A DNA stretch of 64,000 nt. It comes from Escherichia coli (GTDB lineage: Bacteria; Pseudomonadota; Gammaproteobacteria; Enterobacterales; Enterobacteriaceae). This document shows positions 14,539-44,939 of this stretch, in pieces (positions within the stretch are counted from its first letter, which is position 1; each line of letters begins with the position of its first letter). The stretch is taken from NCBI RefSeq assembly GCF_017348835.2, contig NZ_CP071375.1. One strand, given 5' to 3'. The notes beneath the pieces are model-generated. The model was not told the DNA's origin. It did no database searches and saw only the letters and a program-made list of their open reading frames with translations. The position numbers and the translations under genes were made by a program.

Positions 14539-14669
14539 TTTATCAGACAATCTGTGTGGGCACTCGAAGATACGGATTCTTAACGTCGCAAGACGAAAAA
14601 TGAATACCAAGTCTCAAGAGTGAACACGTAATTCATTACGAAGTTTAATTCTTTGAGCATCAAACTTTT

Positions 14670-16211
<1,542 letters not shown>

Positions 16212-16279
16212 CCTTAAAGAAGCGTACTTTGTAGTGCTCACACAGATTGTCTGATGAAAATGAGCAGTAAAACCTCTAC

Positions 16280-16356
<77 letters not shown>

Positions 16357-16398
16357 AATTTGCACGGCAAATTTGAAGAGGTTTTAACTACATGTTAT

Positions 16399-16474
16399 GG
16401 GGCTATAGCTCAGCTGGGAGAGCGCCTGCTTTGCACGCAGGAGGTCTGCGGTTCGATCCCGCATAGCTCCACCA
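16399..16474 (+). tRNA. alaV: tRNA-Ala (TGC)
   Basis: GGGGCTATAGCTCAG...CTCCACCA; anticodon loop TTTGCAC. Confidence 0.95.
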
Positions 16475-16657
16475 TCTCTGTAGTGATTAAATAAAAAATA
16501 CTTCAGAGTGTACCTGCAAAGGTTCACTGCGAAGTTTTGCTCTTTAAAAATCTGGATCAAGCTGAAAATTGAAACACTGAACAACGAGAGTTGTTCGTGA
16601 GTCTCTCAAATTTTCGCAACACGATGATGAATCGAAAGAAACATCTTCGGGTTGTGA

Positions 16658-19560
<2,903 letters not shown>

Positions 19561-19653
19561 ACAACGCCGAAGGTGTTTTGGCGGATTGAGAGAAGATTTT
19601 CAGCCTGATACAGATTAAATCAGAACGCAGAAGCGGTCTGATAAAACAGAATT

Positions 19654-19773
19654 TGCCTGGCGGCCGTAGCGCGGTGGTCCCACCTGACCCCATGCCGAAC
19701 TCAGAAGTGAAACGCCGTAGCGCCGATGGTAGTGTGGGGTCTCCCCATGCGAGAGTAGGGAACTGCCAGGCAT
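19654..19773 (+). rRNA. rrfH: 5S ribosomal RNA
   Basis: TGCCTGGCGGCCGTAGCGCGGTGG...GGAACTGCCAGGCAT; 120 nt. Confidence 0.95.
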
Positions 19774-19964
19774 CAAATTACGAAGAATGGCAATGACCTT
19801 TGAGGCAGTTCACTACTCGATAAGAGAGTAGGACAAAAGCGAAAGCTTTTGAACGTTGCGAAGCAACGGCCCGAAGGGTGAATCACGAAGTGATTCATAA
19901 ACTGCCAGGCATCAAATTAAGCAGTAAGCCGGTCATAAAACCGGTGGTTGTAAAAGAATTCGGT

Positions 19965-20041
19965 GGAGCGGTAGTTCAGTCGGTTAGAATACCTGCCTGT
20001 CACGCAGGGGGTCGCGGGTTCGAGTCCCGTCCGTTCCGCCA
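19965..20041 (+). tRNA. aspU: tRNA-Asp (GTC), distal tRNA of the rrn operon
   Basis: GGAGCGGTAGTTCAGTCGGTTAGAATACCTGCCTGTCACGCAGG...CCGCCA. Confidence 0.95.
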
Positions 20042-28179: not shown

Positions 28180-28256
28180 GGAGCGGTAGTTCAGTCGGTT
28201 AGAATACCTGCCTGTCACGCAGGGGGTCGCGGGTTCGAGTCCCGTCCGTTCCGCCA
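28180..28256 (+). tRNA. aspV: tRNA-Asp (GTC)
   Basis: Identical in sequence to the tRNA-Asp at 19965-20041. Confidence 0.95.
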
Positions 28257-30473: not shown

Positions 30474-32320
30474 GTCATAATTTTACCGCGCTGCATGCTG
30501 TGCAGCGTCATCTGCGAGAAGGTATTAATGGAAACATGGCGGGCGATATAGTGTTCCAGCACCAGGCCGAACAGATACGGACTGATGCCGGAAAAACCTT
30601 CTTCATCCACCGTCAGTTCACAACTGACGCCACGCCCATAGGCCAGTAGTCCGGAACCGGGCAGACGGCGGGTGACCGGGGTCGTTTTACAACCAATCAG
30701 GCTGCGCACCTGGCGCGATTGCGGACTGTCATGAGCAGGAATAAACAGGTTCAGCAGATCTCGCAACGCCTGGCCGCCGGTACGGTGATCCAGATCGGCC
30801 AGCGGCAGATAATTAAAAGATAACTGGCGGATCAACCGCCATGCCATCTCACGTTCAGCCAGCGGGGGCTGCGGCGAGCGTGGCGGGCGGATAAGCCCTA
30901 CGCCCGCCACCGGGATGGCCGCATCCACGGTTAGATCGTCCCGGCCATTGCGGGCAATAAGACAGGGCAGATCGCGGTTAGTGACCATGGCCGTGATGGT
31001 GATGTGGCGCAGATTTTCCGGGTACGGCGCTTCATACTGGTCAACCAGCGACAGGAACACTTCCGAGCCCGTATAGGGGGTACGGGTGCCGTAACGGCGG
31101 GCGTTTTCTGATAAGCGGCGGGGCTCCCGGTGCAGGGAAAAATAACGTCCGTGATTGCCTTCATCATTATTGCGGGTGTGGTAGAGCGGGCGAAAGGCCA
31201 TCTTCCGTGTGGTGTCGGTTTCCAGCCCTTCCACTTCCTGGACCGAGAACACCTCATAATCCAGCGGATGGGTTCTGTCCACCACCAGATGCTGTTCCGT
31301 CGTGCTGTGCGTGACATCGATCCGGGCGGTGACGCGGGGAAACAGGTTGATAACCGGGGTACAGAACAGGCTGAACTGTGCCGCATTTGTCTGGTGGATC
31401 AGCCAGTCCGGCGGCAGGCGGTTCAGCAGGATAACAATCTCCGCCACGCCACCGTCAATTTTCTGTAATCCGGCAGACAGGCCTGTCGGGGTGAAAAAAT
31501 AGAAGCGTTCCGGACAGGCAAAATATTCATGCAGCAGGTTATGACCGTGAAACACGTTCCACGCCAGCGGCAGCAGCCCCTGATCCGGCTCCAGGCCTTC
31601 GTACATAACGGGCTGTTGCAGATTCACATCCAGCGCGCCGTCAAAATGTCCCGGAATGCCAGCCAGGGTCGCGATGGCGCTGGTATGTAGAAGTTCTAAC
31701 AGGTGTGAGGCCGTACGCTCCTCGCCGCAGAGATAAAACGGCAGCCTATCCAGTCCTGCAAGCTGACTGAACGTTAGTTCACCAAAGGTGCGCAGGGTAA
31801 TACGCAGCGCCCCGGCGACGTGAATGTTGGCCGGCAGGTAGCGATGCAGGGCAGGCATATCCGGTGGCGCGGCGGTCAGTCGCGCCTCTTCGATGGCGAG
31901 CGGCCACAGCGTTACATCCTGGCTGCTGCGAAACTGGCAGGCAGTGCTTTCGCCTTCCGGAATGGCGGAGAAAAAGGCCGTGTCGCGCGGGACGGTAAAT
32001 CCTTTCGCCAGATCGCCTTCTTCCGTATCGGGATGCAACTGCGCCACGCTCATTGAGGGCGTGGGTGTGACGTAATTGGGGCTGACCACTTCCAGCAGGC
32101 GCTGGGTGAAACGGGGGAATTCAGCGTCAATTTTTAGCTGCGTGCGGGCGGTCAGGAAGCTGAAGGCCTCGACCATTCGCTCTACATACGGATCGGCAAT
32201 ATCCGTTCCCTGCATGCCCAGCCGGGCGGCGACTTTGGGATGACGGGCGGCAAATTCGGCTCCCGTTTCCCGCAGATAGCTTAGTTCGCGGTTGTAGTAT
32301 TCCAGTAGCCGTGGATCCAT
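30437..32320 (-). CDS. tssF: T6SS baseplate protein TssF
   Basis: 627 aa; N-terminus [36 protein letters not shown] matches the TssF (ImpG/VasA) N-terminal signature as recalled. Confidence 0.75.
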
Positions 32321-32425
32321 CGGTCTCTCTCTGAATTAAAAAAACGTAATGCGGCTCTGCTCCATATCCAGCGCGCTACGTACGCGGGTTCAGCCGTAAC
32401 CGATGTATCTGGTGCCGCCGAGGAG

Positions 32426-34591
32426 ATGGCAGAACAGGCAGCGGCGGACCTGTTTGGTGCGTTGCCGGAACCGTCAGGTCTGGTTAAAGCCGCAGTAGCT
32501 GCTGCGCAGGCTGCCGCTGCAGCAGCAGGGATCCCGGATATGGCTGGTGCAGTTCAGGATGCGGCGGCGTCGATTGCTGCCGGTGGACCGGGGGCGCATA
32601 ACGTCACAGTAAGTGGTAGTGCGGTGCCGCCGCAGCTGCTTTTGTTTGCAGGCATGAATGGTTCGGAAGGGCTTGGAAACCTGTTTTCCTACACAGTACA
32701 GCTTAAAACCCCGGATACCCTGAACCTCGGATATGTCTCCCCCGCAGCCAACCTGCCGCTCAAGCCGATGGTGGGCAAAGACCTGTGCGTCAGTATCGAA
32801 CTGGACGGCGGCGGCAAACGGCATATCAGCGGGCTGGTGACAGCGGCGCGGGTGGTGGGCTATGAGGGCCGCTCGGTAACGTATGAATTACGCCTTGAGC
32901 CGTGGCTGAAACTGCTGACCCATACCAGCGACTACAAAGCGTTCCAGAATAAAACCGTGGTGGATATTCTCGATGAAGTACTGGATGAATATTCCTTTCC
33001 GGTGGAAAAGCGGCTGGTGGAAAATTATCCACCCCGCGCCTGGCAGGTGCAGTATGGTGAAACCGACTTCGATTTCATCCAGCGCCTGATGCAGGAATGG
33101 GGGATTTACTGGTGGTTTGAGCACAGCGAGAACAGCCACACGCTGGTGCTGGCGGATGCCATCAATGGTCATAAAGCGTGCCCTGACTCGCCGCTGGTGG
33201 AGTGGCACCAGGAAGGGCTGAAACTGGACAAGGAATTTATCCACACCATTACGGCCAGTGAGAGGCTGCGTACTGGAAAGTGGGTGATGGACGATTTTGA
33301 TTTTATGAAGCCTCGTTCGCTGCTTAAAAGTACCGTGGCTAGTCCGCGTGATACCGGTCATGCTGAATACGAGCATTATGAATGGCCTGGTGATTACTTC
33401 ACTACGGGCGAAGGCGAGATGCTGACGCGCATTCGTATGGAAGCGCAGCGCAGCCCCGGCAGCCGGGCACATGGGGCAGGTCATATCCGCACCCTCATGA
33501 CGGGTTACACCTTTACGCTGATGAATCATCCAACGGCAGAGGTCAACCAGGAATACCTACTGGTACAGACCACGCTGTTTTTACGGGATAATGCGCAGCA
33601 CAGCGGTCAGGAGCAGCATTTTACCTATGTCACCACGTTTGAACTGCACCCCACCAGCGAAGTTTACCGCCCACAGCGAACCCTAAGCAAACCCCACACC
33701 AAAGGCCCGCAGAGCGCCATCGTCACCGGCCCGGCAGGGCAGGAAATCTGGACGGATAAATATGGCCGGGTGAAGGTGCAGTTTGGCTGGGACCGTTACC
33801 TGTACGATGCGGAACAGCCGTACACGCCGGTGGCCGCCATCACGGGGCGCGGAGAGAGCCGGAAAATCTGGTATTACCACACGGACCTGACGGGCACGGT
33901 ACAGGAGGTGACCGCGCCGGACGGGACGCTGGTGTGGGCGGGCTATCAGGCGGGATTTGGTGAAAACCGGGGCGACATCAGCAACAGCGGGGCGTACTTT
34001 GAGCAGCCGCTGCGGCTGCCGGGGCAGTATTATGATGAAGAGACGGGGCTGCACTATAATCTGTTCAGATATTATGCGCCGGAGTGCGGGAGGTTTATCA
34101 GTCAGGATCCGATTTCGATCCGTGGGGGGCTGAATCTTTACCGGTATGCGCCTAATCCGCTGAGATGGATTGATCCGCTTGGATTAGACTGGAATTATCA
34201 TTTAACAGATAGTGATGGTAAGGTTTATTATCATGGACGTGCAAGTGATAATGCGTCAATGGAAGATGTTGCCCGTCGTCACAGCAATACAACAGGAGCT
34301 GATAAGGCAAGATTTGGAGAAACAGATACCATGACACGAATAACTGAGCCGGGTACGCCAAAATTAACAGCACAAGGTGTGGAAGGTATTGCCATAGGTG
34401 ATAATACTATCGGGCGAAGAGCTGATAACGGTAATAGGGGTCGGGGTAATAATATTCGGGGTGTTAATCCCAATGCAACCAATGCTACTGAAAAACTAAA
34501 TGCGGGTAAAGAATTTTTAAATGGACGAATACCAAGTGAAATGACTGGTGAAACATTGACAGGTAAGGAGTATTTTGAATCAAAATGTTAA
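32426..34591 (+). CDS. Chimeric protein: VgrG N-terminal (gp27-like) region fused in frame to an Rhs C-terminal core segment and a C-terminal toxin domain
   Basis: VgrG-like up to KVQFGWDR, then [21 protein letters not shown]...[27 protein letters not shown], which is nearly identical to 38200-38586 in the downstream Rhs; then an AT-rich unique tail. Confidence 0.7.
33795..34185 (+). repeat. Rhs 3' core segment, copy inside the VgrG chimera
   Basis: Near-identical nucleotide sequence to the Rhs core 3' ends at 38200-38586, 40930-41319 and 43520-43907. Confidence 0.8.
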
Positions 34592-35463
34592 AATTAACCG
34601 ATGTAAATAAAAATGCATTAAGAATACTTAAAAAATATAACGTGCTGGCAGAAGGTGACATAATAAGAGGTCATCCATTAAGTGAGCGGGATTTGAAATA
34701 TGTTGAGGCGCATTGTATTACAACTGAAGAACGAGCCTTTTTAAATGAAAAAGGTTTGGGGTTCGGATTTATTTCTGTGACTCATGATGAAGCATTAAGA
34801 GATTCGTTTACATATTTTAAATCTTCTAATAAAAATGATGTGACAGCTTCTTTTCTGGTGAGCCTGAGTAGTGCCAGATTAGACTACAGAAGTGGATTGT
34901 CTGCATTTGCAATTATGCAAACAATGCCGATGCATGGCTTTGAACCAAATCAGGCTTCTTTTTGTAAAGTATGTTCCGCAGAAAAATATAAAAAGCATTT
35001 TGATCTAACCAGCTTAAATCAGACTCGTTTCTTTAGTGGTTCTCTAGCAGTCTTTAAAACTCCTTATGAAATTTCTTTTTTTCTGGAGCAACAATCAAAA
35101 TTGGAAGTCGTTCAGCCAACCGAAAAAGATTTCTCTATCTTTAATGCGATTTTGAAAATAATTGTTGACGCAGAATCTGGCGAAAAACTGACATCAATAA
35201 TTAAAAAAATTAGAGCGATTGATGGCTTCAGGATAACTACAGATCAGTGTCGATGTCTTCTGGAAACGCTGGGATTTTGTGGGATTCTGGAAACGAAGGA
35301 ACACAAAGGGTATCTGACTTACTTTACTAATCCTGGACTGGCTCCGAGTAAATCTCATAGTTCTAACTGGGCCTATCCGGTTGATTTCTGGACCGGAGGG
35401 GATGGAATAAATCGCGAAGCGTTAAAATTCTGGTTTGGTGAATATAAAGAAATTGTTATCTGA
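34585..35463 (+). CDS. Putative immunity protein for the chimera's C-terminal toxin
   Basis: 292 aa AT-rich ORF; start overlaps the toxin stop (ATGTTAA), which suggests translational coupling. Confidence 0.45.
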
Positions 35464-35557: not shown

Positions 35558-35887
35558 TTACGGTTGAATAAGATCGTCAATAAACACCGCACCGTCAACG
35601 GTACGCAACCAGCGTGGCGCTTTCAGTTTTGCCGCAAAGAACCAGACCAGTTCACAAAGCAGCCCCGTCAGGGGTTGTTCCATTTTAGATCCCTGCGCCT
35701 GTTCCGTCAGGAGCTGGAGTAATACCTCGCAATATTCACACAATTGCTCAGGATCCAGGTCAAAGTGCGGAAATGAGGCAGGCAGGTCGTCGAGTGTCAG
35801 GCTGTCTACCAGATGGGGTGGAATAGGATCGTTCAGCGTGGGAGACAGAATGGCGATACAGGCGCGAAGTCGTCCGAACAACGCCAT
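35558..35887 (-). CDS. Hypothetical protein, possibly the distal part of a frameshifted gene that starts near 36021
   Basis: 109 aa ORF; upstream on the same strand a 36-codon ORF with RBS ggaggt ends in a stop just before it. Confidence 0.2.
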   Translation of the reverse strand: MALFGRLRACIAILSPTLNDPIPPHLVDSLTLDDLPASFPHFDLDPEQLCEYCEVLLQLLTEQAQGSKMEQPLTGLLCELVWFFAAKLKAPRWLRTVDGAVFIDDLIQP

Positions 35888-36097
35888 TTTCAGCGCCGGA
35901 TCGTGACACTCTATAAGGGTTCAGCGAAGCGATCGCAGTGATCGGCCAGGTCTGTGAAATCGGTGGCAGAACTGAAAGGAATGGACAATAAATCATAATC
36001 AGGGGTGAGGACTGTAGCCATAAGGCAACCTCCGATAAGTAGGCGTTAAAACCACCACCGAAGAGACCAATCTTACGGGTGGTGGAACCGGGCGGAG

Positions 36098-38932
36098 TTG
36101 GTCTTACCGGCCTTATCGGATACCGGCGCATCTTTCGATGCCACCGCCCGGCCCACCATTGAGGTACAGCCGTGCGTGCAACACAAAAAAGACGCTGGCG
36201 CGTCATGTGTCGCCGATAAGACTTATTCAGGAGACCAATCCCGACGCCTGATTTTGCAGACGCGGCATAACGATACAACGATCGCGAAATGGCGACAAAC
36301 CCCTTTCCCGGAAGGCGGCTCGCAAAATCAGAAATATCACAGGGAAAGACAGAGCGCCGCAACGCGGCGGGATGTACCGCTTCACGTACAACGAAAACCA
36401 TTTTCCGGTAGCGGTGGAACTCCCCGGCGAACGCAGGTAACGCTGGAATACGACACCCTGAGCCGGGTGGTGAAAGAGACGGACCCGGCAGGCCGGGTGA
36501 CACAGACGCAGTGGAACGGCAGTTTTGCTGAAATCACGCGCCGGGCACTGGATGACGACCACGTATGGAAGGCGGATTACAACGAACACGGCCAGGTGAT
36601 ACGGGAGACGGACCCGGAAGGGCGCGTCACGCGCTACGGGTATGATGAACAGGGGCTGGCGGTCAGCCGCACGGATGCGCGGGGCGGCGAGGCTGCGCTG
36701 GCGCATGATGCGCGCGGCCAGCTGAGGCGTTACACCGACTGTTCAGGGCGTGCCACGGGTTATGAATACGATGAAGACGGCAACCTGACGGTGGTGACGG
36801 ACGCGGAGGGGAAAACGGTACGTATCCGCTATAACCGTCTGGGACTGCCGGAGACGGTAAATCATCCCGGTAAACAGCAGGACCGTTACACGTGGAACGC
36901 GCTGGGGTTACTGAGCAGCCACCGTCGCATCACAGGCAGTGTGCAGTCCTGGCAGTATACGCCGCGCGGTCTGCTGGCGCTCCACGTAGATGAAGAGAAA
37001 CGGGAGACGCGCTGGCATTATACCGCGGAGGGATGGATTGCCAGTCTGAGCAACGGCAACGGAGCGCTTTACCGGTTCAGTCACGATGCGGACGGACGGC
37101 TGACGGGAGAACAGCGCCCGGACGGTCTGATACGGATGTTTGTGCTGAATGCGGGCGGGTATCCGGTCATCATCCAGACGCAGGGTACAGAAGGCGGGGG
37201 GCGCAATGAACAGCAGGAGCGTGACGCGCTGGGCCGCCTGCTGCGCAGTGACACGCAGCACAGTACACGGACCTTCAGCTACAACCGTCTTGACCAGATA
37301 ACGGAAGTGACGCTCACCCCGACGAAAGAAGGGGAACGGCTGCACCACATGCAGGCGGACACGGTGCGCTTTGCGTATGACCGCAGCGGCTGGCTGACGG
37401 CAGAGCACAGCGTGCACGGCAGCATAAAATATCAGCGTGACGCGCTGGGCAATCCCACCGATATCACGTTGCCGGACGGGCAGCATCTCAGTCATCTTTA
37501 CTACGGCAGCGGACATCTGCTCCAGACGGCACTGGACGGTATCACGGTCAGCGAATATGAGCGTGACAGTCTGCACCGTCAGGTGATGCGCACGCAGGGG
37601 AAACTGGCGACGTTCAGCGGCTACAACGCCGACAACCGGTTAAGCTGGCAGCGCAGTCTGCCAGGTGGCAGCCAGAATCCACAGCAGACCGGTAACCCCC
37701 CGGCGCAGAACGACAGCGTGACGGCGCGGGACTATATCTGGAATGCGGACGGTGAGGTCGGCGGCATCAATGACAAACTGCGCGGTTGCCTGGTGTTCAG
37801 CTATGACCGCAGCGGCTGGCTGACCAGTCGCACGGGTCAGATGTACGACCATGACCATTATTATTACGACAAAGCGGGCAACCTGCTGACGGACGAGTAT
37901 CAGAGCGCGGTGATGGATAACCGCCTGCCGGGCTACGGGCGTGACCGTTACCGCTATAACGAATGGGGCGAACTGACAGAGCGCAGGGACCAGCAACTGG
38001 AGTGGAATGCGCAGGGCCAGTTAACGCGGGTCATCAGCAGCAACAGCGAGACGCGGTATCAGTATGATGCGCTGGGCAGGCGTATCAGCAAGGCGACCAG
38101 CAATCTCCATACCGACCGGGGAGAACGAAGCCGGACAACGTTTGTGTGGGAAGGGGTCCGGCTGTTGCAGGAGACAACGTGGCAGGGAAAGCGGACGTAC
38201 CTGTACGACGCGGAACAGCCGTACACGCCGGTGGCCGCCATCACCGGGCGCGGAGAGAGCCGGAAAATCTGGTATTACCACACGGACCTGACGGGCACGG
38301 TACAGGAGGTGACCGCGGCGGACGGGACGCTGGTGTGGGCGGGCTATCAGGCGGGGTTCGGAGAAAACCGGGGCGACATCAGCAACAGCGGGGCGTATTT
38401 TGAACAGCCGCTGCGGCTGCCGGGGCAGTATTATGATGAAGAGACGGGGCTGCACTATAATCTGTTCAGATATTATGCGCCGGAGTGCGGGAGGTTCGTA
38501 AGCCAGGATCCGATTTCGATCCGGGGTGGTCTGAATCTTTACCGGTATGCGCCGAATCCGATTACTTGGATCGATCCGTGGGGATTGGCAAAGGGGGATT
38601 ATGGTAAAATGCCTACGTTCCCTGGTTGGCAGAAACATCATAATATTCCACAAAATATGGCTACTCATTCGGCAATTGTTGACTCTGGATTTGATATACA
38701 TAATAGTCGTAACATTACAACCTTGCCAAAAACTGGAAGTATAGATACTGCCAGAACAGTGCACAGTGGAATGCACACAGGAGATTATGACAGGATGGTA
38801 AAAAATGCTTTAGATCAAATTGACTCGTTGAATGCTTCCCCTGAGATCAAAAAAATGCATATAGAAGCCTTATCTGATGATATTGGCAATAAATTGAGAA
38901 CAAAACAAATTACGTTAAATGCTGCATGTTGA
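36098..38932 (+). CDS. Rhs / YD-repeat protein, 5'-truncated and frameshifted near 36425, with a C-terminal toxin domain after DPWGL
   Basis: YD repeats (RYxYD, YxYDxxG); frame switch at gaacgcaggtaacgctg; core ends ...NPITWIDPWGL, followed by an AT-rich tip. Confidence 0.7.
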   Translation: MVLPALSDTGASFDATARPTIEVQPCVQHKKDAGASCVADKTYSGDQSRRLILQTRHNDTTIAKWRQTPFPEGGSQNQKYHRERQSAATRRDVPLHVQRKPFSGSGGTPRRTQVTLEYDTLSRVVKETDPAGRVTQTQWNGSFAEITRRALDDDHVWKADYNEHGQVIRETDPEGRVTRYGYDEQGLAVSRTDARGGEAALAHDARGQLRRYTDCSGRATGYEYDEDGNLTVVTDAEGKTVRIRYNRLGLPETVNHPGKQQDRYTWNALGLLSSHRRITGSVQSWQYTPRGLLALHVDEEKRETRWHYTAEGWIASLSNGNGALYRFSHDADGRLTGEQRPDGLIRMFVLNAGGYPVIIQTQGTEGGGRNEQQERDALGRLLRSDTQHSTRTFSYNRLDQITEVTLTPTKEGERLHHMQADTVRFAYDRSGWLTAEHSVHGSIKYQRDALGNPTDITLPDGQHLSHLYYGSGHLLQTALDGITVSEYERDSLHRQVMRTQGKLATFSGYNADNRLSWQRSLPGGSQNPQQTGNPPAQNDSVTARDYIWNADGEVGGINDKLRGCLVFSYDRSGWLTSRTGQMYDHDHYYYDKAGNLLTDEYQSAVMDNRLPGYGRDRYRYNEWGELTERRDQQLEWNAQGQLTRVISSNSETRYQYDALGRRISKATSNLHTDRGERSRTTFVWEGVRLLQETTWQGKRTYLYDAEQPYTPVAAITGRGESRKIWYYHTDLTGTVQEVTAADGTLVWAGYQAGFGENRGDISNSGAYFEQPLRLPGQYYDEETGLHYNLFRYYAPECGRFVSQDPISIRGGLNLYRYAPNPITWIDPWGLAKGDYGKMPTFPGWQKHHNIPQNMATHSAIVDSGFDIHNSRNITTLPKTGSIDTARTVHSGMHTGDYDRMVKNALDQIDSLNASPEIKKMHIEALSDDIGNKLRTKQITLNAAC
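36848..38586 (+). repeat. Rhs conserved core repeat, copy 1
   Basis: About 1.7 kb, near-identical to 39583-41319; 3' part near-identical to 42465-43907. Confidence 0.85.
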
Positions 38933-38947
38933 ATAACGAGGGAATAT

Positions 38948-39538
38948 ATGATTTATTTTTTATCTGATAAAAAAAATACCTTCGGGTTGTTGCATTATGA
39001 TCATAAAACTTCGATCGACTACACAGTATTTAATGAGGGGGTTAGCATAACAGGAATAGACATTAATATTAAATATACATCAAACAATAAAAATGATTTA
39101 AAACGGCTCGAAAAGTGTAACATTATAGAAACGACAGGTCCGACATTGATAAATAATAAGATTAGACATGTTTTTGAAAAATATGCAAGCAATGCGGTTG
39201 AATTTTTTGATGTAGACATTAACGATGATATAGATTTATCAAGGAAGTTTTGTGCGATTAATTTATTATGGGTCTTACCATGTTGTGATATGGAAAAGAG
39301 TGAATTTACATTAAGTAATTTCGATCTTGCCAATCCTAACTATATGTTTATGTATAAAGTTCTAAAAAATGATATTAATAGAGAGGTGGATATATTTCGG
39401 TGTAAGGAGCAGCATACTGAAATTGTTGTAAGTGAAGGAGTTAAGCAAGCATGTATGGACGCGGGAATTAAAGGATTGCGTTTTTGTACGGCTATTGATT
39501 TAACTCCAAAAAATAGATCTGAGTGTGTATTTATTTAA
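38948..39538 (+). CDS. Putative immunity protein for the toxin tip of the Rhs at 36098-38932
   Basis: 196 aa AT-rich ORF immediately after the toxin. Confidence 0.45.
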   Translation: MIYFLSDKKNTFGLLHYDHKTSIDYTVFNEGVSITGIDINIKYTSNNKNDLKRLEKCNIIETTGPTLINNKIRHVFEKYASNAVEFFDVDINDDIDLSRKFCAINLLWVLPCCDMEKSEFTLSNFDLANPNYMFMYKVLKNDINREVDIFRCKEQHTEIVVSEGVKQACMDAGIKGLRFCTAIDLTPKNRSECVFI

Positions 39539-39547
39539 TATATATGT

Positions 39548-41656
39548 ATCACGCGGTGCGGGTATGACGAACAGTTCCTGCCGGAGACGGTCAGCCACCC
39601 CGGTAAACAGCAGGACCGTTACACCTGGAACGCACTGGGGTTACTGAGCAGCCATCGTCGCATCACGGGCAGTGTGCAGTCCTGGCAGTATACGCCGCGC
39701 GGGATGCTGGCGCGCCATACGGATGAAGAGAAACGGGAGACGCGCTGGCAGTACACCCCGGAAGGGCTGGTTGCCAGTCTGAGCAACGGCAACGGAGCGC
39801 TTTACCGGTTCAGTCACGATGCGGACGGACGGCTGACGGGAGAACAGCGCCCGGACGGTCTGATACGGATGTTTGTGCTGAATGCGGGCGGGTATCCGGT
39901 CATCATCCAGACGCAGGGTACAGAAGGCGGGGGGCGCAATGAACAGCAGGAGCGTGACGCGCTGGGCCGCCTGCTGCGCAGTGACACGCAGCACAGTACA
40001 CGGACCTTCAGCTACAACCGTCTTGACCAGATAACGGAAGTGACGCTCACCCCCACGGAAGAAGGGGAACGGCTGCACCACATGCAGGCGGACACGGTGC
40101 GCTTTGCGTATGACCGCAGCGGCTGGCTGACGGCAGAGCACAGCGTGCACGGCAGCATAAAATATCAGCGTGACGCGCTGGGCAATCCCACCGACATCAC
40201 GTTACCGAACGGGCAGCACCTCAGCCATCTTTACTACGGCAGCGGGCATCTGCTCCAGACGGCACTGGACGGTATCACGGTCAGTGAATATGAGCGTGAC
40301 AGTCTGCACCGTCAGGTGATGCGCACGCAGGGGAAACTGGCGACGTTCAGCGGCTACAACGCCGACAACCGGTTAAGCTGGCAGCGCAGCCTGCCAGGTG
40401 GCAGCCAGAACCCACAGCAGGCCGGTAACCCCCCGGCGCAGAAAGACAGCGTGACAGCGCGGGATTATATCTGGAACGCAGACGGTGAAGTCGGCGGCAT
40501 CAATGACAAACTGCGCGGTTGCCTGGTGTTCAGCTATGACCGCAGCGGCTGGCTGACCAGTCGCACGGGTCAGATGTACGACCATGACCATTATTATTAC
40601 GACAAAGCGGGCAATCTGCAGACGGATGAGCATCAGGGAGCGGTGCCGGATAACCGCCTGCCGGGCTACGGGCGTGACCGCTACCGCTATAACGAATGGG
40701 GCGAACTGACAGAGCGCAGGGACCAGCAACTGGAGTGGAATACGCAGGGCCAGTTAACGCGGGTCATCAGCAGCAACAGCGAGACGCGGTATCAGTATGA
40801 TGCGCTGGGCAGGCGTATCAGCAAGGCGACCAGCAATCTCCATACCGACCGGGGAGAACGAAGCCGGACAACGTTTGTGTGGGAAGGGTTCCGGCTGTTG
40901 CAGGAGACAACGTGGCAGGGAAAGCGGACATACCTGTACGACGCGGAACAGCCGTACACGCCGGTGGCGGCCATCACGGGGCGCGGAGAGAGCCAGAAAA
41001 TCTGGTATTACCACACGGACCTGACGGGCACGGTACACGAGGTAACCGCGCCGGACGGGACGCTGGTGTGGGCGGGCTACCAGGCGGGATTTGGCGAAAA
41101 CCGGGGCGACATCAGCAACAGCGGGGCGTACTTTGAGCAGCCGCTGCGACTGCCGGGGCAGTACTTTGACGAAGAAACAGGGCTGCATTACAATCTGTTC
41201 AGGTATTATGCGCCGGAGTGCGGGAGGTTCGTAAGCCAGGATCCGATAGGGTTGCTTGGTGGGCTGAACTTATATGCTTATGCGCCTAATCCGCTGTCAT
41301 GGATCGATCCGTTAGGTTTGACTCCATGTGCAAATGGGGGGAATGCTAAAAAACATGGTGGCACAGGACATAATAATTTTATTGATAATCTTATTGCGGA
41401 TGCTCGCAGTCAGGGTGCTACAAATATCAGGAAAAACCAATGGCAGGTAGATGTTAATGGAAATGTTGTTGGTAAAAATAGACCGGATGTTCAATTTGAT
41501 TTAAATGGTAAACATTATAATATTGAGGTTGATACAACAATAAAAGGCAGCGTTGGTCACCAAAATACTATACCTACACTTGATCCCAACTCAAGAAATA
41601 CATTTTGGCTAATTGATGACTTAGGGAATATTTTAAATGGCCACTCAACCATCTGA
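39548..41656 (+). pseudogene. Orphan 5'-truncated Rhs fragment with a distinct C-terminal toxin domain
   Basis: Rhs homology starts abruptly right after the upstream immunity gene; ORF track gives 39674..41656; core ends DPLGL, then a unique tip. Confidence 0.65.
39583..41319 (+). repeat. Rhs conserved core repeat, copy 2
   Basis: Near-identical to 36848-38586. Confidence 0.85.
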
Positions 41657-42221
41657 TAATAAAAAATTAGTGTTTGCTGTAGTGAACAGTGATTTTAATG
41701 ATATAGAAAGAACTATCCATAATGGATTGAACTGGCCGAGTGAACCAATAAGTAGTCGAAAACTTATTGAGGAAATACACTTGACTATTCAACGTGGTGG
41801 GGTCTTGCCGTCCGAGGGGGTTTTCTATTATCCGTGTATAAATGACAGCAAATTAATTTTTCTGTCTAATTTATCTGATGGATGGGACTCTTTACTTTAT
41901 TGCCTGTCAAAACAGAATAAATCTAGCTATCTACTGTTTAGGTTATTGATGGGGGAATACCCTCTGATGGAAATGAGTTTTATAGAGTCAGGGAAAACAA
42001 TACGTTTAATTAGAGTGATAAAAGAAAATAAATGGATTTTTTATGAGGTCGGGGAACCGTTATGGTTTGAAGAAAAGGAAAACTATTCAAAAAGAAGAAT
42101 CGCAGATAGAATTACTTATGATCTCTTACTCTCCTATTCACGGAAAAATGGCATTGACTTTGATTCCCCCGCATTTTTTAAAACGGAAAAAGAATCACTA
42201 TGGTTGAATGAAATACGATAG
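41637..42221 (+). CDS. Putative immunity protein for the second orphan toxin
   Basis: 194 aa AT-rich ORF overlapping the toxin 3' end. Confidence 0.4.
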   Translation: MATQPSDNKKLVFAVVNSDFNDIERTIHNGLNWPSEPISSRKLIEEIHLTIQRGGVLPSEGVFYYPCINDSKLIFLSNLSDGWDSLLYCLSKQNKSSYLLFRLLMGEYPLMEMSFIESGKTIRLIRVIKENKWIFYEVGEPLWFEEKENYSKRRIADRITYDLLLSYSRKNGIDFDSPAFFKTEKESLWLNEIR

Positions 42222-42232
42222 TTTATTTAAAT

Positions 42233-42271
42233 AAAAAGCCGGAAAAGAAATTAAACTTTCCCGGCTTTTTT
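42233..42271. terminator. Bidirectional hairpin terminator
   Basis: aaaaagccggaaaag...ctttcccggctttttt; homologous to the hairpin at 44613-44650. Confidence 0.5.
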
Positions 42272-42276
42272 ATTAT

Positions 42277-42465
42277 TTAACTCTCGTTCAGCACACTAAA
42301 CATCCCGTCCCGCATCCCCTTAACTGCCTGTTTAACCTGATAAAGCTCCCTGCGCAGTTCCTGTACTTCGTTGTTATCCGCAAGCAGGATCAGACATCCC
42401 TCCGAGATCTTCACGGTAACGCCCGTGCCGATCTCAAATCCCGCTTCTCTCAGCCATTTGGCGCT
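42277..42465 (-). pseudogene. SymE-like toxin gene, 5'-truncated by the adjoining Rhs fragment
   Basis: C-terminal 60 aa AKWLREAGFEIGTGVTVKISEGCLILLADNN... resemble SymE; the upstream part of the ORF is antisense Rhs sequence. Confidence 0.5.
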
Positions 42466-43907
42466 GAATGCGGGCGGGTTTCCGGTCATCATCCAGACGC
42501 AGGGCACAGAGGGCGGGGTGCGTAATGAGCGGCAGGAGCGTGATGCGCTGGGCCGCCTGCTGCGCAGTGACACGCAGCACAGTACACGGACCTTCAGCTA
42601 CAACCGTCTTGACCAGATAACGGAAGTGACGCTCACCCCCACGGAAGAAGGGGAACGGCTGCACCACATGCAGGCGGACACGGTGCGCTTTGCGTATGAC
42701 CGCAGCGGCTGGCTGACGGCAGAGCACAGCGTGCACGGCAGCATAAAATATCAGCGTGACGCGCTGGGCAATCCCACCGACATCACGTTACCGAACGGGC
42801 AGCACCTCAGCCATCTTTACTACGGCAGCGGGCATCTGCTCCAGACGGCACTGGACGGTATCACGGTCAGTGAATATGAGCGTGACAGTCTGCACCGTCA
42901 GGTGATGCGCACGCAGGGGAAACTGGCGACGTTCAGCGGCTACAACGCCGACAACCGGTTAAGCTGGCAGCGCAGCCTGCCAGGTGGCAGCCAGAACCCA
43001 CAGCAGGCCGGTAACCCCCCGGCGCAGAAAGACAGCGTGACAGCGCGGGATTATATCTGGAACGCAGACGGTGAAGTCGGCGGCATCAATGACAAACTGC
43101 GCGGTTGCCTGGTGTTCAGCTATGACCGCAGCGGCTGGCTGACCAGTCGCACGGGTCAGATGTACGACCATGACCATTATTATTACGACAAAGCGGGCAA
43201 TCTGCAGACGGATGAGCATCAGGGAGCGGTGCCGGATAACCGCCTGCCGGGCTACGGGCGTGACCGCTACCGCTATAACGAATGGGGCGAACTGACAGAG
43301 CGCAGGGACCAGCAACTGGAGTGGAATACGCAGGGCCAGTTAACGCGGGTCATCAGCAGCAACAGCGAGACGCGGTATCAGTATGATGCGCTGGGCAGGC
43401 GTATCAGCAAGGCGACCAGCAATCTCCATACCGACCGGGGAGAACGAAGCCGGACAACGTTTGTGTGGGAAGGGTTCCGGCTGTTGCAGGAGACAACGTG
43501 GCAGGGAAAGCGGACATACCTGTACGACGCGGAACAGCCGTACACGCCGGTGGCGGCCATCACGGGGCGCGGAGAGAGCCAGAAAATCTGGTATTACCAC
43601 ACGGACCTGACGGGCACGGTACACGAGGTAACCGCGCCGGACGGGACGCTGGTGTGGGCGGGCTACCAGGCGGGATTTGGTGAAAACCGGGGCGACATCA
43701 GCAACAGCGGGGCGTACTTTGAGCAGCCGCTGCGGCTGCCGGGGCAGTATTATGATGAAGATACGGGGCTGCACTATAATCTGTTCAGATATTATGCGCC
43801 GGAGTGCGGGCGGTTTATCAGTCAGGACCCGATAGGGCTGGCGGGAGGAATAAACCTATATGCTTATGCGCCTAATCCGCTAAGTTATATTGATCCTCTT
43901 GGGCTTT
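42465..43907 (+). repeat. Rhs conserved core repeat, copy 3
   Basis: Near-identical to 37146-38586 and 39880-41319. Confidence 0.85.
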
Positions 43908-44335
43908 GTAAATTAAGGGGAAGCGATGGGCGCTACAGAAGTGCACAGAATATTCAGGAAGAAATAGGCGGCCTACCCAATTTTGCAGGAAAAACTCCAG
44001 GAGAAATACGACAAACTTTGCGTAATCGAGGTTATTCGTCGGTACAAGCGTATAGTGGAGGAGAGGTCTGGACAAAAGCATTACCTGACGGAAATACTGT
44101 TGCAGTGAGGCTTGATCCGGCAAATCCTCGCTCACCTTCACATTATGCTGATGCTGTACCTCATGCTCATATTGAAACAGTTCCAACATCCAGTGTTTCT
44201 AATGGGAATTATCGCCCGCGAGACGTGACTGGCAGGCATACTGCCACTGGTGGGGTTTCTGATCGAGGAACAAATCCGAATCATAACGCTGATGTTTACA
44301 TTCCAATGTCTCCGGGACGATTCCCATATGATTAA
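42465..44335 (+). pseudogene. Orphan 5'-truncated Rhs fragment with a third distinct C-terminal toxin domain
   Basis: Rhs homology starts at gctgaatgcgggcggg (matches 37139 in copy 1); core ends DPLGL at 43907, followed by a unique tip. Confidence 0.65.
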
Positions 44336-44346
44336 TGTGAGGTTTT

Positions 44347-44610
44347 ATGAATATCCGAAATCAATATAATGAAGCCTTAAATAAATTAGAAGTTGATGTT
44401 AATGATGGTTTGAGAGATTTAATAAACATATATTGTGTGGCTATTGATTCTTTTGAAAATGATATCGTTGACTCGATTGCTTTATACGTGATTGATATGG
44501 GAAATAAAGATACTTGTCGATATCTACAAGAAGTCTTATCAGAGAATGAAGATCCTTATTTAGTAAAAGAATTTAATGCATGGATAAAAGAAATTAAGAA
44601 AAAATATTAA
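44347..44610 (+). CDS. Putative immunity protein for the third orphan toxin
   Basis: 87 aa AT-rich acidic ORF immediately after the toxin. Confidence 0.4.
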   Translation: MNIRNQYNEALNKLEVDVNDGLRDLINIYCVAIDSFENDIVDSIALYVIDMGNKDTCRYLQEVLSENEDPYLVKEFNAWIKEIKKKY

Positions 44611-44612
44611 AA

Positions 44613-44650
44613 TAAAAGCCGGGAAGGTTATAAAATCTTCCCGGCTTTTT
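44613..44650. terminator. Bidirectional hairpin terminator
   Basis: aaaagccgggaagg...cttcccggcttttt. Confidence 0.5.
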
Positions 44651-44654
44651 ATTT

Positions 44655-44939
44655 TTAATTCTCGTTCAGTACACTAAACATCCCGTCCCGCATCCCCTTA
44701 ACCGCCTGTTTAACCTGATAAAGTTCCCTGCGCAGTTCCTGTACTTCGTTGTTATCGGCAAGCAGGATCAGGCAGCCTTCCGAGATCTTCACAGTAACGC
44801 CCGTGCCGATCGAAAATTCCGCTTCTCTCAGCCATTTGGCGCTGATTTTGATCACCGGCGTGTCGCTGCTGTTGGGCAGATATCCTACGGTACAACGGCG
44901 TTGTGTTTTGGAAATGGTGACTTCTGGCGTAATATCATG
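44655..44939 (-). CDS. SymE-like toxin homolog; no canonical ATG at the 5' end of the open frame
   Basis: The open frame reads ...RRCTVGYLPNSSDTPVIKISAKWLREAEFSIGTGVTVKISEGCLILLA..., resembling K-12 SymE (LTVSY...ITLKGQWLEAAGF...GTAVDVKVMEGCIVLTA) as recalled; ORF track starts at 44855. Confidence 0.5.
   Translation of the reverse strand, partial: HDITPEVTISKTQRRCTVGYLPNSSDTPVIKISAKWLREAEFSIGTGVTVKISEGCLILLADNNEVQELRRELYQVKQAVKGMRDGMFSVLNEN

What the first reader, a model, noticed from the sequence alone, without database searches (positions are those of the whole stretch)
38587..39538. Rhs toxin tip with HNH / AHH-like nuclease signature, plus 196 aa putative immunity gene
After DPWGL the tip contains WQKHHNIPQ, followed by N...LP and a second His cluster (HSGMHTGDYD). 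This is consistent with the His-Me finger (HNH/EndoVII) nucleases of the AHH/GHH/SHH clade described in polymorphic toxin systems. A coupled AT-rich ORF follows. The family assignment is from motif reading only.
Basis: inference. Interest (0 to 1): 0.6.

Follow-up and report, generated by a model that had tools for sequence, protein, structure and literature searches.

The report
Stranded Rhs AHH-nuclease toxin and immunity cassette
This is an ordinary, already-annotated E. coli Rhs toxin tip of the AHH (His-Me finger) nuclease family with its Imm11 immunity gene, but it sits on a truncated "orphan" Rhs fragment in a largely deleted type VI secretion locus, so the toxin is probably not deployed.

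Summary
After DPWGL (38573-38587) a 114-aa tip (38588-38929) carries WQKHHNIPQ, N…LP and HSGMHTGDY. A 196-aa AT-rich ORF (38948-39538) follows 15 nt later, behind a GAGG ribosome-binding site.

The interpretation also holds, and can be narrowed:
- The tip matches Pfam AHH (PF14412, E=7.6e-16) and no other HNH-type family.
- In 63 relatives the invariant or near-invariant residues are H17, H18, N42, H59, H63 and Y67, which is the published Tox-AHH signature.
- The ORF is Imm11 (PF07791, E=6.9e-13) and matches the solved Imm11 prototype MXAN_0049, the immunity partner of an AHH DNase.
- Relatives of the tip end full-length T6SS Rhs proteins and are followed by 196-197-aa Imm11 genes.

- The window is E. 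coli PE164-like.
- The Rhs carrier lacks residues 1-510 of a full-length Rhs and is frameshifted at its 5' end.
- The T6SS-1 locus retains only tssA, tssG and tssF plus a vgrG'::'rhs remnant.

The cassette is therefore an intact but stranded orphan module. NCBI already names these exact proteins "AHH domain-containing" and "imm11 family". Interest is low.

The parts
36366..38587 (+). Orphan Rhs core fragment, equivalent to residues ~511-1255 of a 1398-aa full-length T6SS-1 Rhs. It is frameshifted near 36422-36437 and ends in the Rhs-associated core and DPWGL.
   Evidence: tblastn of E. coli A20 Rhs against the window. NCBIfam YD_repeat, Rhs_assc_core and RHS_core hits. PGAP marks it 'frameshifted; incomplete; missing N-terminus'. 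The mechanical 944-aa ORF (36098-38932) begins in unrelated DNA.
38573..38587 (+). DPWGL, the end of the Rhs-associated core. In intact Rhs proteins this is the boundary (processing site) between shell and toxin.
   Evidence: Sequence. The TIGR03696 match ends at ORF residue 830, model position 76 of 76. The processing role comes from established knowledge of Rhs/Tc proteins and was not tested.
38588..38932 (+). Tox-AHH (PF14412) nuclease domain, 114 aa plus stop. This is ORF residues 831-944.
   Evidence: Pfam AHH E=7.6e-16. 91 relatives in an exhaustive search. AF2 model with pLDDT 95.4. PGAP: 'AHH domain-containing protein' WP_096220697.1.
38636..38641 (+). HH dyad (tip H17-H18, ORF H847-H848). 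These are the predicted metal ligand and general base.
   Evidence: Invariant in 63 of 63 relatives. The equivalent H385A/H386A mutants abolish V2a DNase activity (PMC6971182).
38711..38728 (+). N42…L46-P47 (NITTLP), the conserved Asn and LP of the second strand.
   Evidence: N42 and P47 are invariant and L46 is present in 59 of 63. Strand E43-47 in the AF2 model.
38762..38788 (+). H59-x-G61-x-H63-xxx-Y67 (HSGMHTGDY), the second His cluster. Predicted to supply further metal ligands, at the start of helix 65-79.
   Evidence: H59 in 63 of 63, G61 in 61, H63 in 61 and Y67 in 58. Matches the '[AG]HH, N, H, H, Y' signature of Zhang et al. 2012.
38938..38943 (+). GAGGGA ribosome-binding site, 4 nt before the immunity ATG.
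   Evidence: Sequence. Function is inferred.
38948..39538 (+). Imm11-family (PF07791 / DUF1629) immunity gene, 196 aa.
   Evidence: Pfam Imm11 E=6.9e-13. PDB 6a4c MXAN_0049 E=2.3e-4. 39-44% identical, end-to-end alignable with the Imm11 genes that follow related Rhs-AHH toxins. PGAP: 'imm11 family protein' WP_089637935.1.
39548..41656 (+). Right-hand boundary of the cassette. The next orphan Rhs fragment starts here (equivalent to full-length residues ~662-1252, plus a different tip).
   Evidence: tblastn and direct repeats D1-D4.

Best explanation
The region is a polymorphic-toxin cassette: a C-terminal Tox-AHH DNase domain and its cognate Imm11 immunity protein.

In an intact system the mechanism would run as follows:
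1. The AHH domain is enclosed in the Rhs YD-repeat shell and released by cleavage at DPxGL.
2. It is carried on a PAAR/VgrG spike by T6SS-1 into a neighbouring bacterium.
3. There it cuts DNA. H17, H59 and H63 hold a divalent metal and H18 activates water. N42 braces the hairpin.
4. Imm11 binds and blocks the toxin in the producer and its kin.

In this genome the cassette is an orphan. Its Rhs carrier lacks the first ~510 residues (prePAAR/PAAR and the start of the shell) and is frameshifted. The cognate vgrG is reduced to a vgrG'::'rhs chimera, and eagR and most T6SS-1 genes are deleted. The toxin is therefore most likely silent. It is a reserve module that could only be activated by recombination into a full-length rhs. 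The intact immunity gene may still protect against neighbours that fire the same toxin.

Shown here: family membership, conserved residues, gene linkage, truncation and the locus deletions. Inferred: DNase activity, residue roles, neutralisation and lack of expression.
For: - Family: Pfam AHH E=7.6e-16 and Imm11 E=6.9e-13.
- Conserved residues: H17, H18, N42, P47 and H59 are invariant; P21, L46, G61, H63 and Y67 are at least 90% conserved in 63 relatives. This equals the Tox-AHH signature, and Imm11 is a listed partner.
- Structure: the AF2 model has pLDDT 95.4 with the order strand(HH)-strand(N..LP)-helix.
- Immunity: it matches the solved MXAN_0049, partner of the AHH DNase MXAN_0050, whose DNase activity and neutralisation were shown (PMC12077131; PMC12077181).
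- Catalytic dyad: HH-dyad mutants abolish V2a DNase activity.
- Linkage: relatives 47-62% identical sit at the C-termini of Rhs proteins followed by 196-197-aa Imm11 genes, next to hcp/vgrG or clpV/tssG.
- Orphan status: tblastn places the fragment at residues 511-1255 of a full-length Rhs, with a frameshift. PGAP flags it as a pseudogene.
- Locus decay: tssF/tssE' joins vgrG at codon ~33, and vgrG codon ~501 joins rhs codon ~1122. The intact reference cluster is; only tssA, tssG and tssF remain here.
- Carriers in NCBI: the longest NCBI protein carrying this exact tip is 543 aa.
Against: - No activity, expression or binding data exist for this protein.
- The literal [AG]HH is KHH here.
- No solved AHH structure was found by sequence.
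- Both tip and immunity ORFs are fully intact. That may reflect recent acquisition or ongoing selection, and hence some use.
- Other T6SS or rhs loci elsewhere in the genome were not examined.
Confidence: 0.85

Rival explanations
1. The Rhs-AHH protein is an active, delivered T6SS effector in this strain, as a plain reading of 'Rhs toxin tip' would imply.
For: A 944-aa uninterrupted ORF exists. Tip and immunity are intact. tssA, tssG and tssF are nearby.
Against: - Rhs homology starts only at 36366, in another frame, and corresponds to residue 511 of a full-length Rhs. There is no PAAR and no N-terminal plug.
- The ORF's first codons lie in P4-like DNA, antisense to the C4 and isrK RNAs.
- vgrG is truncated and fused, eagR is absent, and tssE through tssM are deleted.
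- PGAP calls it a pseudogene in both genomes.
Confidence: 0.04
2. A stand-alone 107-aa AHH protein is translated from the internal ATG at 38609 (as PGAP annotates in PE164). Together with Imm11 it acts as a cytoplasmic toxin-antitoxin-like addiction pair that stabilises the orphan array.
For: PGAP calls a 107-aa 'AHH domain-containing protein' from 38609. A purine-rich AAGGGGGA lies 12-19 nt upstream. Both ORFs stay intact although the secretion genes are lost.
Against: The Met belongs to a conserved internal 'MP' of the domain in relatives embedded in long Rhs proteins. No convincing promoter was found: 6 promoter-like sites against 4.5±2.4 expected. No precedent was retrieved.
Confidence: 0.05
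3. The domain has the AHH scaffold but a different or lost activity, for example an RNase, a nickase or an inactive relic.
For: Lys replaces Ala/Gly before HH. Fold searches did not recover His-Me nucleases. The module is stranded, so selection on the toxin could be relaxed.
Against: Every signature residue is present and the domain aligns end to end (residues 1-114) with relatives. KHH relatives occur in full-length T6SS Rhs proteins scored as AHH by Pfam. The characterised AHH toxins are DNases.
Confidence: 0.06

Closest known systems
Myxococcus xanthus MXAN_0050 / MXAN_0049 (T6SS AHH nuclease toxin and Imm11 immunity; PDB 6a4c)
   Same: Same two Pfam families in the same order, toxin then immunity. 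The window's immunity protein aligns with MXAN_0049 over residues 58-179 at E=2.3e-4. DNase activity and neutralisation were shown for that pair.
   Different: The Myxococcus toxin uses a separate or N-terminal PAAR rather than an Rhs shell. Sequence identity is low. The window's copy has no functional carrier.
Agrobacterium tumefaciens 1D1609 V2a (Tox-AHH T6SS DNase)
   Same: AHH-family His-Me finger domain. The HH dyad is required for plasmid degradation and toxicity, and a cognate immunity protein neutralises it.
   Different: V2a is a DUF4150/PAAR-like fusion with a literal AHH motif. The tip here is Rhs-borne and has KHH.
E. coli T6SS-1 PAAR-Rhs-AHH effectors (Ma et al. 2017, as cited in bioRxiv 10.1101/2024.03.05.583533 and PMC6971182)
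   Same: Same species, same aspV-yafV T6SS-1 locus, and the same architecture of Rhs core, AHH tip and immunity. Delivery is reported to depend on VgrG-O1 and EagR.
   Different: This tip/immunity sequence was found in only 2 of 5426 complete E. coli genomes, even at ~65-70% nucleotide sensitivity. It is therefore a different, rare AHH allele. Here VgrG, EagR and the Rhs N-terminus are missing. It was not compared directly with those proteins.
Orphan rhs toxin-immunity modules downstream of a main rhs gene (Salmonella/E. coli; my own knowledge, e.g. Koskiniemi et al. 2014)
   Same: A tandem array of 5'-truncated rhs fragments shares core homology, and each fragment has its own AT-rich tip and immunity gene.
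   Different: Here the 'main' rhs has itself been deleted down to its last ~130 core codons and fused to a vgrG remnant. The usual activation route, recombination with the main gene, is therefore not available at this locus.

Membership tests
Tox-AHH (Pfam PF14412, HNH/EndoVII superfamily) | Significant match to the family profile over nearly its whole length | tested here: met
   E=7.6e-16, 58.5 bits, model positions 6-110 of 111. No other nuclease family reached E<0.1.
Tox-AHH (Pfam PF14412, HNH/EndoVII superfamily) | HH dyad at the end of the first strand | tested here: met
   H17-H18 are invariant in 63 of 63 relatives. They lie at the end of strand E14-18 in the AF2 model.
Tox-AHH (Pfam PF14412, HNH/EndoVII superfamily) | Ala or Gly immediately before HH (the literal '[AG]HH' of Zhang et al. 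2012) | tested here: not met
   It is Lys here. In the 63 relatives the position varies: K 14, R 10, A 10, S 4, N 4 and others. KHH relatives P0005, P0007 and P0009 carry precomputed PF14412 hits. This residue names the family but does not delimit it.
Tox-AHH (Pfam PF14412, HNH/EndoVII superfamily) | Downstream conserved N, H, H, Y | tested here: met
   N42 in 63 of 63, H59 in 63, H63 in 61 and Y67 in 58.
Tox-AHH (Pfam PF14412, HNH/EndoVII superfamily) | ββα-metal (His-Me finger) fold | tested here: inconclusive
Tox-AHH (Pfam PF14412, HNH/EndoVII superfamily) | Metal-dependent DNase activity that requires the HH dyad | not testable with these tools
   Shown only for homologues.
Imm11 (Pfam PF07791 / DUF1629) | Profile match and homology to the prototype MXAN_0049 | tested here: met
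   E=6.9e-13. PDB 6a4c E=2.3e-4. PGAP: 'imm11 family protein'.
Imm11 (Pfam PF07791 / DUF1629) | Encoded immediately downstream of an AHH, HNH or SHH toxin on the same strand, with the linkage conserved in relatives | tested here: met
   15-nt gap. Imm11 follows related Rhs-AHH genes in L004-L007, with 39-44% identity over the full length. The pairing is listed.
Imm11 (Pfam PF07791 / DUF1629) | Binds and neutralises the cognate toxin | not testable with these tools
   Needs co-expression and pull-down experiments.
Functional T6SS PAAR-Rhs effector | YD-repeat shell ending in the Rhs-associated core and DPxGL | tested here: met
   TIGR01643 and TIGR03696 hits. The core ends at residue 830, DPWGL.
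Functional T6SS PAAR-Rhs effector | N-terminal prePAAR/PAAR region and a complete shell | tested here: not met
   The fragment starts at residue ~511 of a 1398-aa homologue and is frameshifted near 36422-36437.
Functional T6SS PAAR-Rhs effector | Cognate VgrG, EagR chaperone and T6SS core genes | tested here: not met
   vgrG is reduced to codons ~33-501 and fused to the rhs 3' end. eagR and tssE through tssM are absent from the locus. Other loci in the genome were not examined.

The most novel reading that the evidence does not exclude
The KHH subclade of AHH tips, seen here and in Citrobacter and a few metagenomic Rhs proteins, might differ in substrate or metal use from characterised AHH DNases. 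Alternatively, the stranded cassette might persist because a 107-aa AHH protein made from the internal ATG at 38609 forms an addiction pair with Imm11. That would be a polymorphic-toxin module repurposed as a toxin-antitoxin system after loss of its secretion machine.
Probability: 0.06. Interest if true: 0.4.

Novelty: already known. Interest (0 to 1): 0.12.

Why it matters
It matters little beyond correct annotation. Rhs-AHH is reported as the most common nuclease class among T6SS PAAR-Rhs effectors. AHH-Imm11 pairs have been characterised experimentally in Myxococcus. NCBI already labels these exact E. coli proteins as AHH and imm11.

The useful points are practical:
- The long ORF is not a real gene.
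- The toxin cannot be assumed to be deployed, because the T6SS-1 locus is a remnant.
- The retained immunity gene is the part most likely to affect fitness, by protecting against neighbours armed with this rare allele.

Tried and rejected
- **Word-indexed protein search with the tip.** It found nothing, although the exact protein is in that collection. This is a sensitivity limit of the tool, not evidence of rarity. The exhaustive HMMER search was used instead.
- **PDB sequence searches.** The tip alone and the 63-sequence profile gave no significant hit, so no solved AHH relative was found.
- **PADLOC.** No hit for tip or immunity, so this is not a known anti-phage defence component.
- **NCBIfam.** Only Rhs and VgrG models hit; nothing for the tip or immunity.
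- **Promoter/terminator scan of 38300-39800.** The counts do not differ from shuffled sequence, so it is uninformative.
- **Retracted paper.** PMC6156420 (V. parahaemolyticus RhsP, AHH/Imm11) appeared in the literature search and was not used.
- **Chance motif.** Rejected on the E-values and on column conservation.
Full report
**1. What is there**

The ORF list and the raw sequence show a + strand ORF at 36098-38932. Its C-terminus reads …NPITWIDPWGL|AKGDYGKMPTFPGWQKHHNIPQ…SRNITTLP…RTVHSGMHTGDYD…LNAAC.

- DPWGL occupies 38573-38587.
- The tip is 114 aa (38588-38929), with the stop at 38930-38932.
- After 15 nt, which contain GAGGGA (38938-38943), a 196-aa ORF runs 38948-39538.
- GC content drops from 0.60-0.63 in the Rhs core to 0.29-0.35 over the tip and ORF. 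It returns to 0.63 where the next Rhs fragment begins.

The stated start is off by one base.

**2. Family assignment**

*Toxin.* Pfam places the tip in AHH (PF14412, E=7.6e-16, model positions 6-110 of 111). No other nuclease family comes close.

An exhaustive HMMER search of 1.84 billion representatives gave 91 relatives, the closest 55-63% identical. I aligned 63 of them:

| Conservation | Residues |
|---|---|
| Invariant | H17, H18, N42, P47, H59 |
| At least 90% | P21, L46, G61, H63, Y67 |

This reproduces the Tox-AHH signature '[AG]HH, N, H, H, Y' tabulated by Zhang et al. 2012 (PMC3482391).

The one departure is Lys before HH. That column varies among the relatives (K 14, R 10, A 10, and others). 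KHH relatives in full-length Rhs proteins carry precomputed AHH hits.

An AlphaFold2 model built on the alignment is confident (pLDDT 95.4). Its order is strand 14-18 (ending in HH), short helix, strand 43-47 (N..LP), then helix 65-79 just after H59 and H63. That fits a ββα-metal finger with an inserted loop.

*Immunity.* The 196-aa ORF is Imm11 (PF07791, E=6.9e-13). It matches the solved Imm11 prototype MXAN_0049 (6a4c, E=2.3e-4).

Imm11 is one of the immunity families listed for Tox-AHH. The MXAN_0050/MXAN_0049 pair is an experimentally shown T6SS AHH DNase and its immunity protein (PMC12077131; PMC12077181).

**3. Conserved linkage**

Three relatives of the tip were traced to their contigs:

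- **P0009** (47% identical tip, 1341 aa) lies in the order hcp, vgrG, an unknown gene, Rhs-AHH, a 197-aa Imm11, then tssG.
- **P0005** (62% identical) is followed by a 196-aa Imm11, next to clpV and tssG.
- **P0007** (56% identical) lies on a 2.7-kb contig that ends 84 codons into its unscored downstream gene, so that contig does not test the linkage.

Where the downstream gene could be scored (P0009, P0005), those immunity proteins align end to end with the window's ORF at 39-44% identity. Toxin and immunity have diverged together, as expected for a cognate pair.

**4. Genomic context changes the functional reading**

The window is essentially E. coli PE164 (pig, Nanjing), with 1 mismatch in 19 kb. 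The tip and immunity occur in only 2 of 5426 complete E. coli genomes, PE164 and F2_81, both from pigs. This holds even at blastn sensitivity.

PGAP already names the products 'AHH domain-containing protein' and 'imm11 family protein', and flags the Rhs part as a frameshifted, N-terminally incomplete pseudogene.

*The carrier is truncated.* I ran tblastn with an intact 1398-aa T6SS-1 Rhs from strain A20:

- Homology starts at 36366, equivalent to residue 511.
- It shifts frame near 36422-36437.
- It then runs to residue 1255 at DPWGL.

The first ~90 codons of the mechanical ORF lie in unrelated DNA. That DNA is ~76% identical to P4-like 'ash family' regions. It contains C4 antisense RNA and isrK on the opposite strand.

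*The locus is a remnant.* The intact A20 cluster runs aspV, tssA, tssG, tssF, tssE, tagJ, tagK, clpV, tssB, tssC, hcp, tssJ, tssK, tssL, tssM, tae4/tai4, tagF, vgrG, eagR, rhs. The window differs as follows:

- It keeps only tssA, tssG and tssF.
- The last ~50 nt of tssE are joined to vgrG at codon ~33.
- vgrG codon ~501 is joined, with a few bases of overlap, to rhs codon ~1122.

Three orphan rhs fragments follow, and the AHH module is the first. Among NCBI proteins carrying this exact tip, the longest is 543 aa.

**5. Mechanism**

By homology, the cassette encodes a metal-dependent DNase toxin and a blocking immunity protein:

- H17, H59 and H63 act as metal ligands, H18 as general base and N42 as a hairpin brace.
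- The residue roles follow the literature quoted and the V2a mutants.

In this strain the toxin has no PAAR, no complete shell, no VgrG or EagR and no sheath, tube or membrane complex at the locus. I conclude that it is a stranded orphan module.

The intact immunity gene is the part most likely to still matter. It could give protection against kin or competitors that fire this allele.

The DNase activity, the neutralisation and the lack of expression are all inferences.

**6. Rivals**

- **Active delivered effector (0.04).** Contradicted by the truncation and the locus deletions.
- **Internal-start 107-aa AHH plus Imm11 as an addiction pair (0.05).** Not excluded, but unsupported.
- **Altered or lost activity (0.06).** All signature residues are intact.
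- **Chance motif.** Excluded.

**7. Novelty and score**

Rhs-AHH is described as the dominant nuclease class among PAAR-Rhs effectors, including in E. coli T6SS-1. AHH-Imm11 pairing is tabulated and has been validated experimentally. These very proteins are already annotated as such.

This is a rare allele of a known kind, sitting in a decayed locus.

Noticed in passing
window 32000-34591: The T6SS-1 locus is a remnant. tssF plus the last ~50 nt of tssE are joined at ~32388 to vgrG codon ~33. vgrG codon ~501 is joined at ~33797 (3-10 nt of overlap) to rhs codon ~1122. The result is a 721-aa in-frame vgrG'::'rhs-CT chimera ORF (32426-34591). About 23 kb (tssE through tagF) and eagR are missing relative to strain A20. 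The vgrG-rhs junction occurs only in PE164 and F2_81 among 5426 genomes.
   Followed up: yes
window 35592-36282; Rfam hits at 36075-36163 (-) and 36185-36263 (-): A fragment ~76% identical to P4-like 'hypothetical protein | ash family protein' regions of more than 400 E. coli genomes sits between Rhs modules. It carries C4 antisense RNA (70.6 bits) and isrK (65.8 bits) on the minus strand. The spurious 5' end of the 944-aa ORF runs antisense through them.
   Followed up: partly
window 34187-35463; 41321-42221; 43907-44610: The three other Rhs tips are 134 aa, 111 aa and 142 aa, with downstream ORFs of 292, 194 and 87 aa. None has a Pfam hit (one concatenated scan), and none of the three tips has a PDB sequence hit. 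By eye only, the 111-aa tip has a PD…E-x-D…K-like pattern (RPDVQF…NIEVDTTIK) suggestive of a restriction-endonuclease-fold toxin. These tips are less well explained than the AHH module.
   Followed up: partly
window 42277-42492 (-) and 44655-44855 (-): PGAP annotates SymE-family type I toxin genes on the opposite strand at the junctions that follow orphan modules. The two copies form a 200-nt direct repeat (42268-42467 / 44646-44845, 93% identical).
   Followed up: no
window 38609-38932: PGAP in PE164 calls a stand-alone 107-aa 'AHH domain-containing protein' from an internal ATG. In F2_81 the same DNA is merged into the Rhs pseudogene. The two records annotate identical sequence inconsistently.
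   Followed up: partly
window ~14660-20040 and 28180-28256: This is the rrnH-type rRNA operon (16S, tRNA-Ile, tRNA-Ala, 23S, 5S, tRNA-Asp) and the aspV tRNA-Asp next to tssA, the usual T6SS-1 insertion site in E. coli. It is context only.
   Followed up: no
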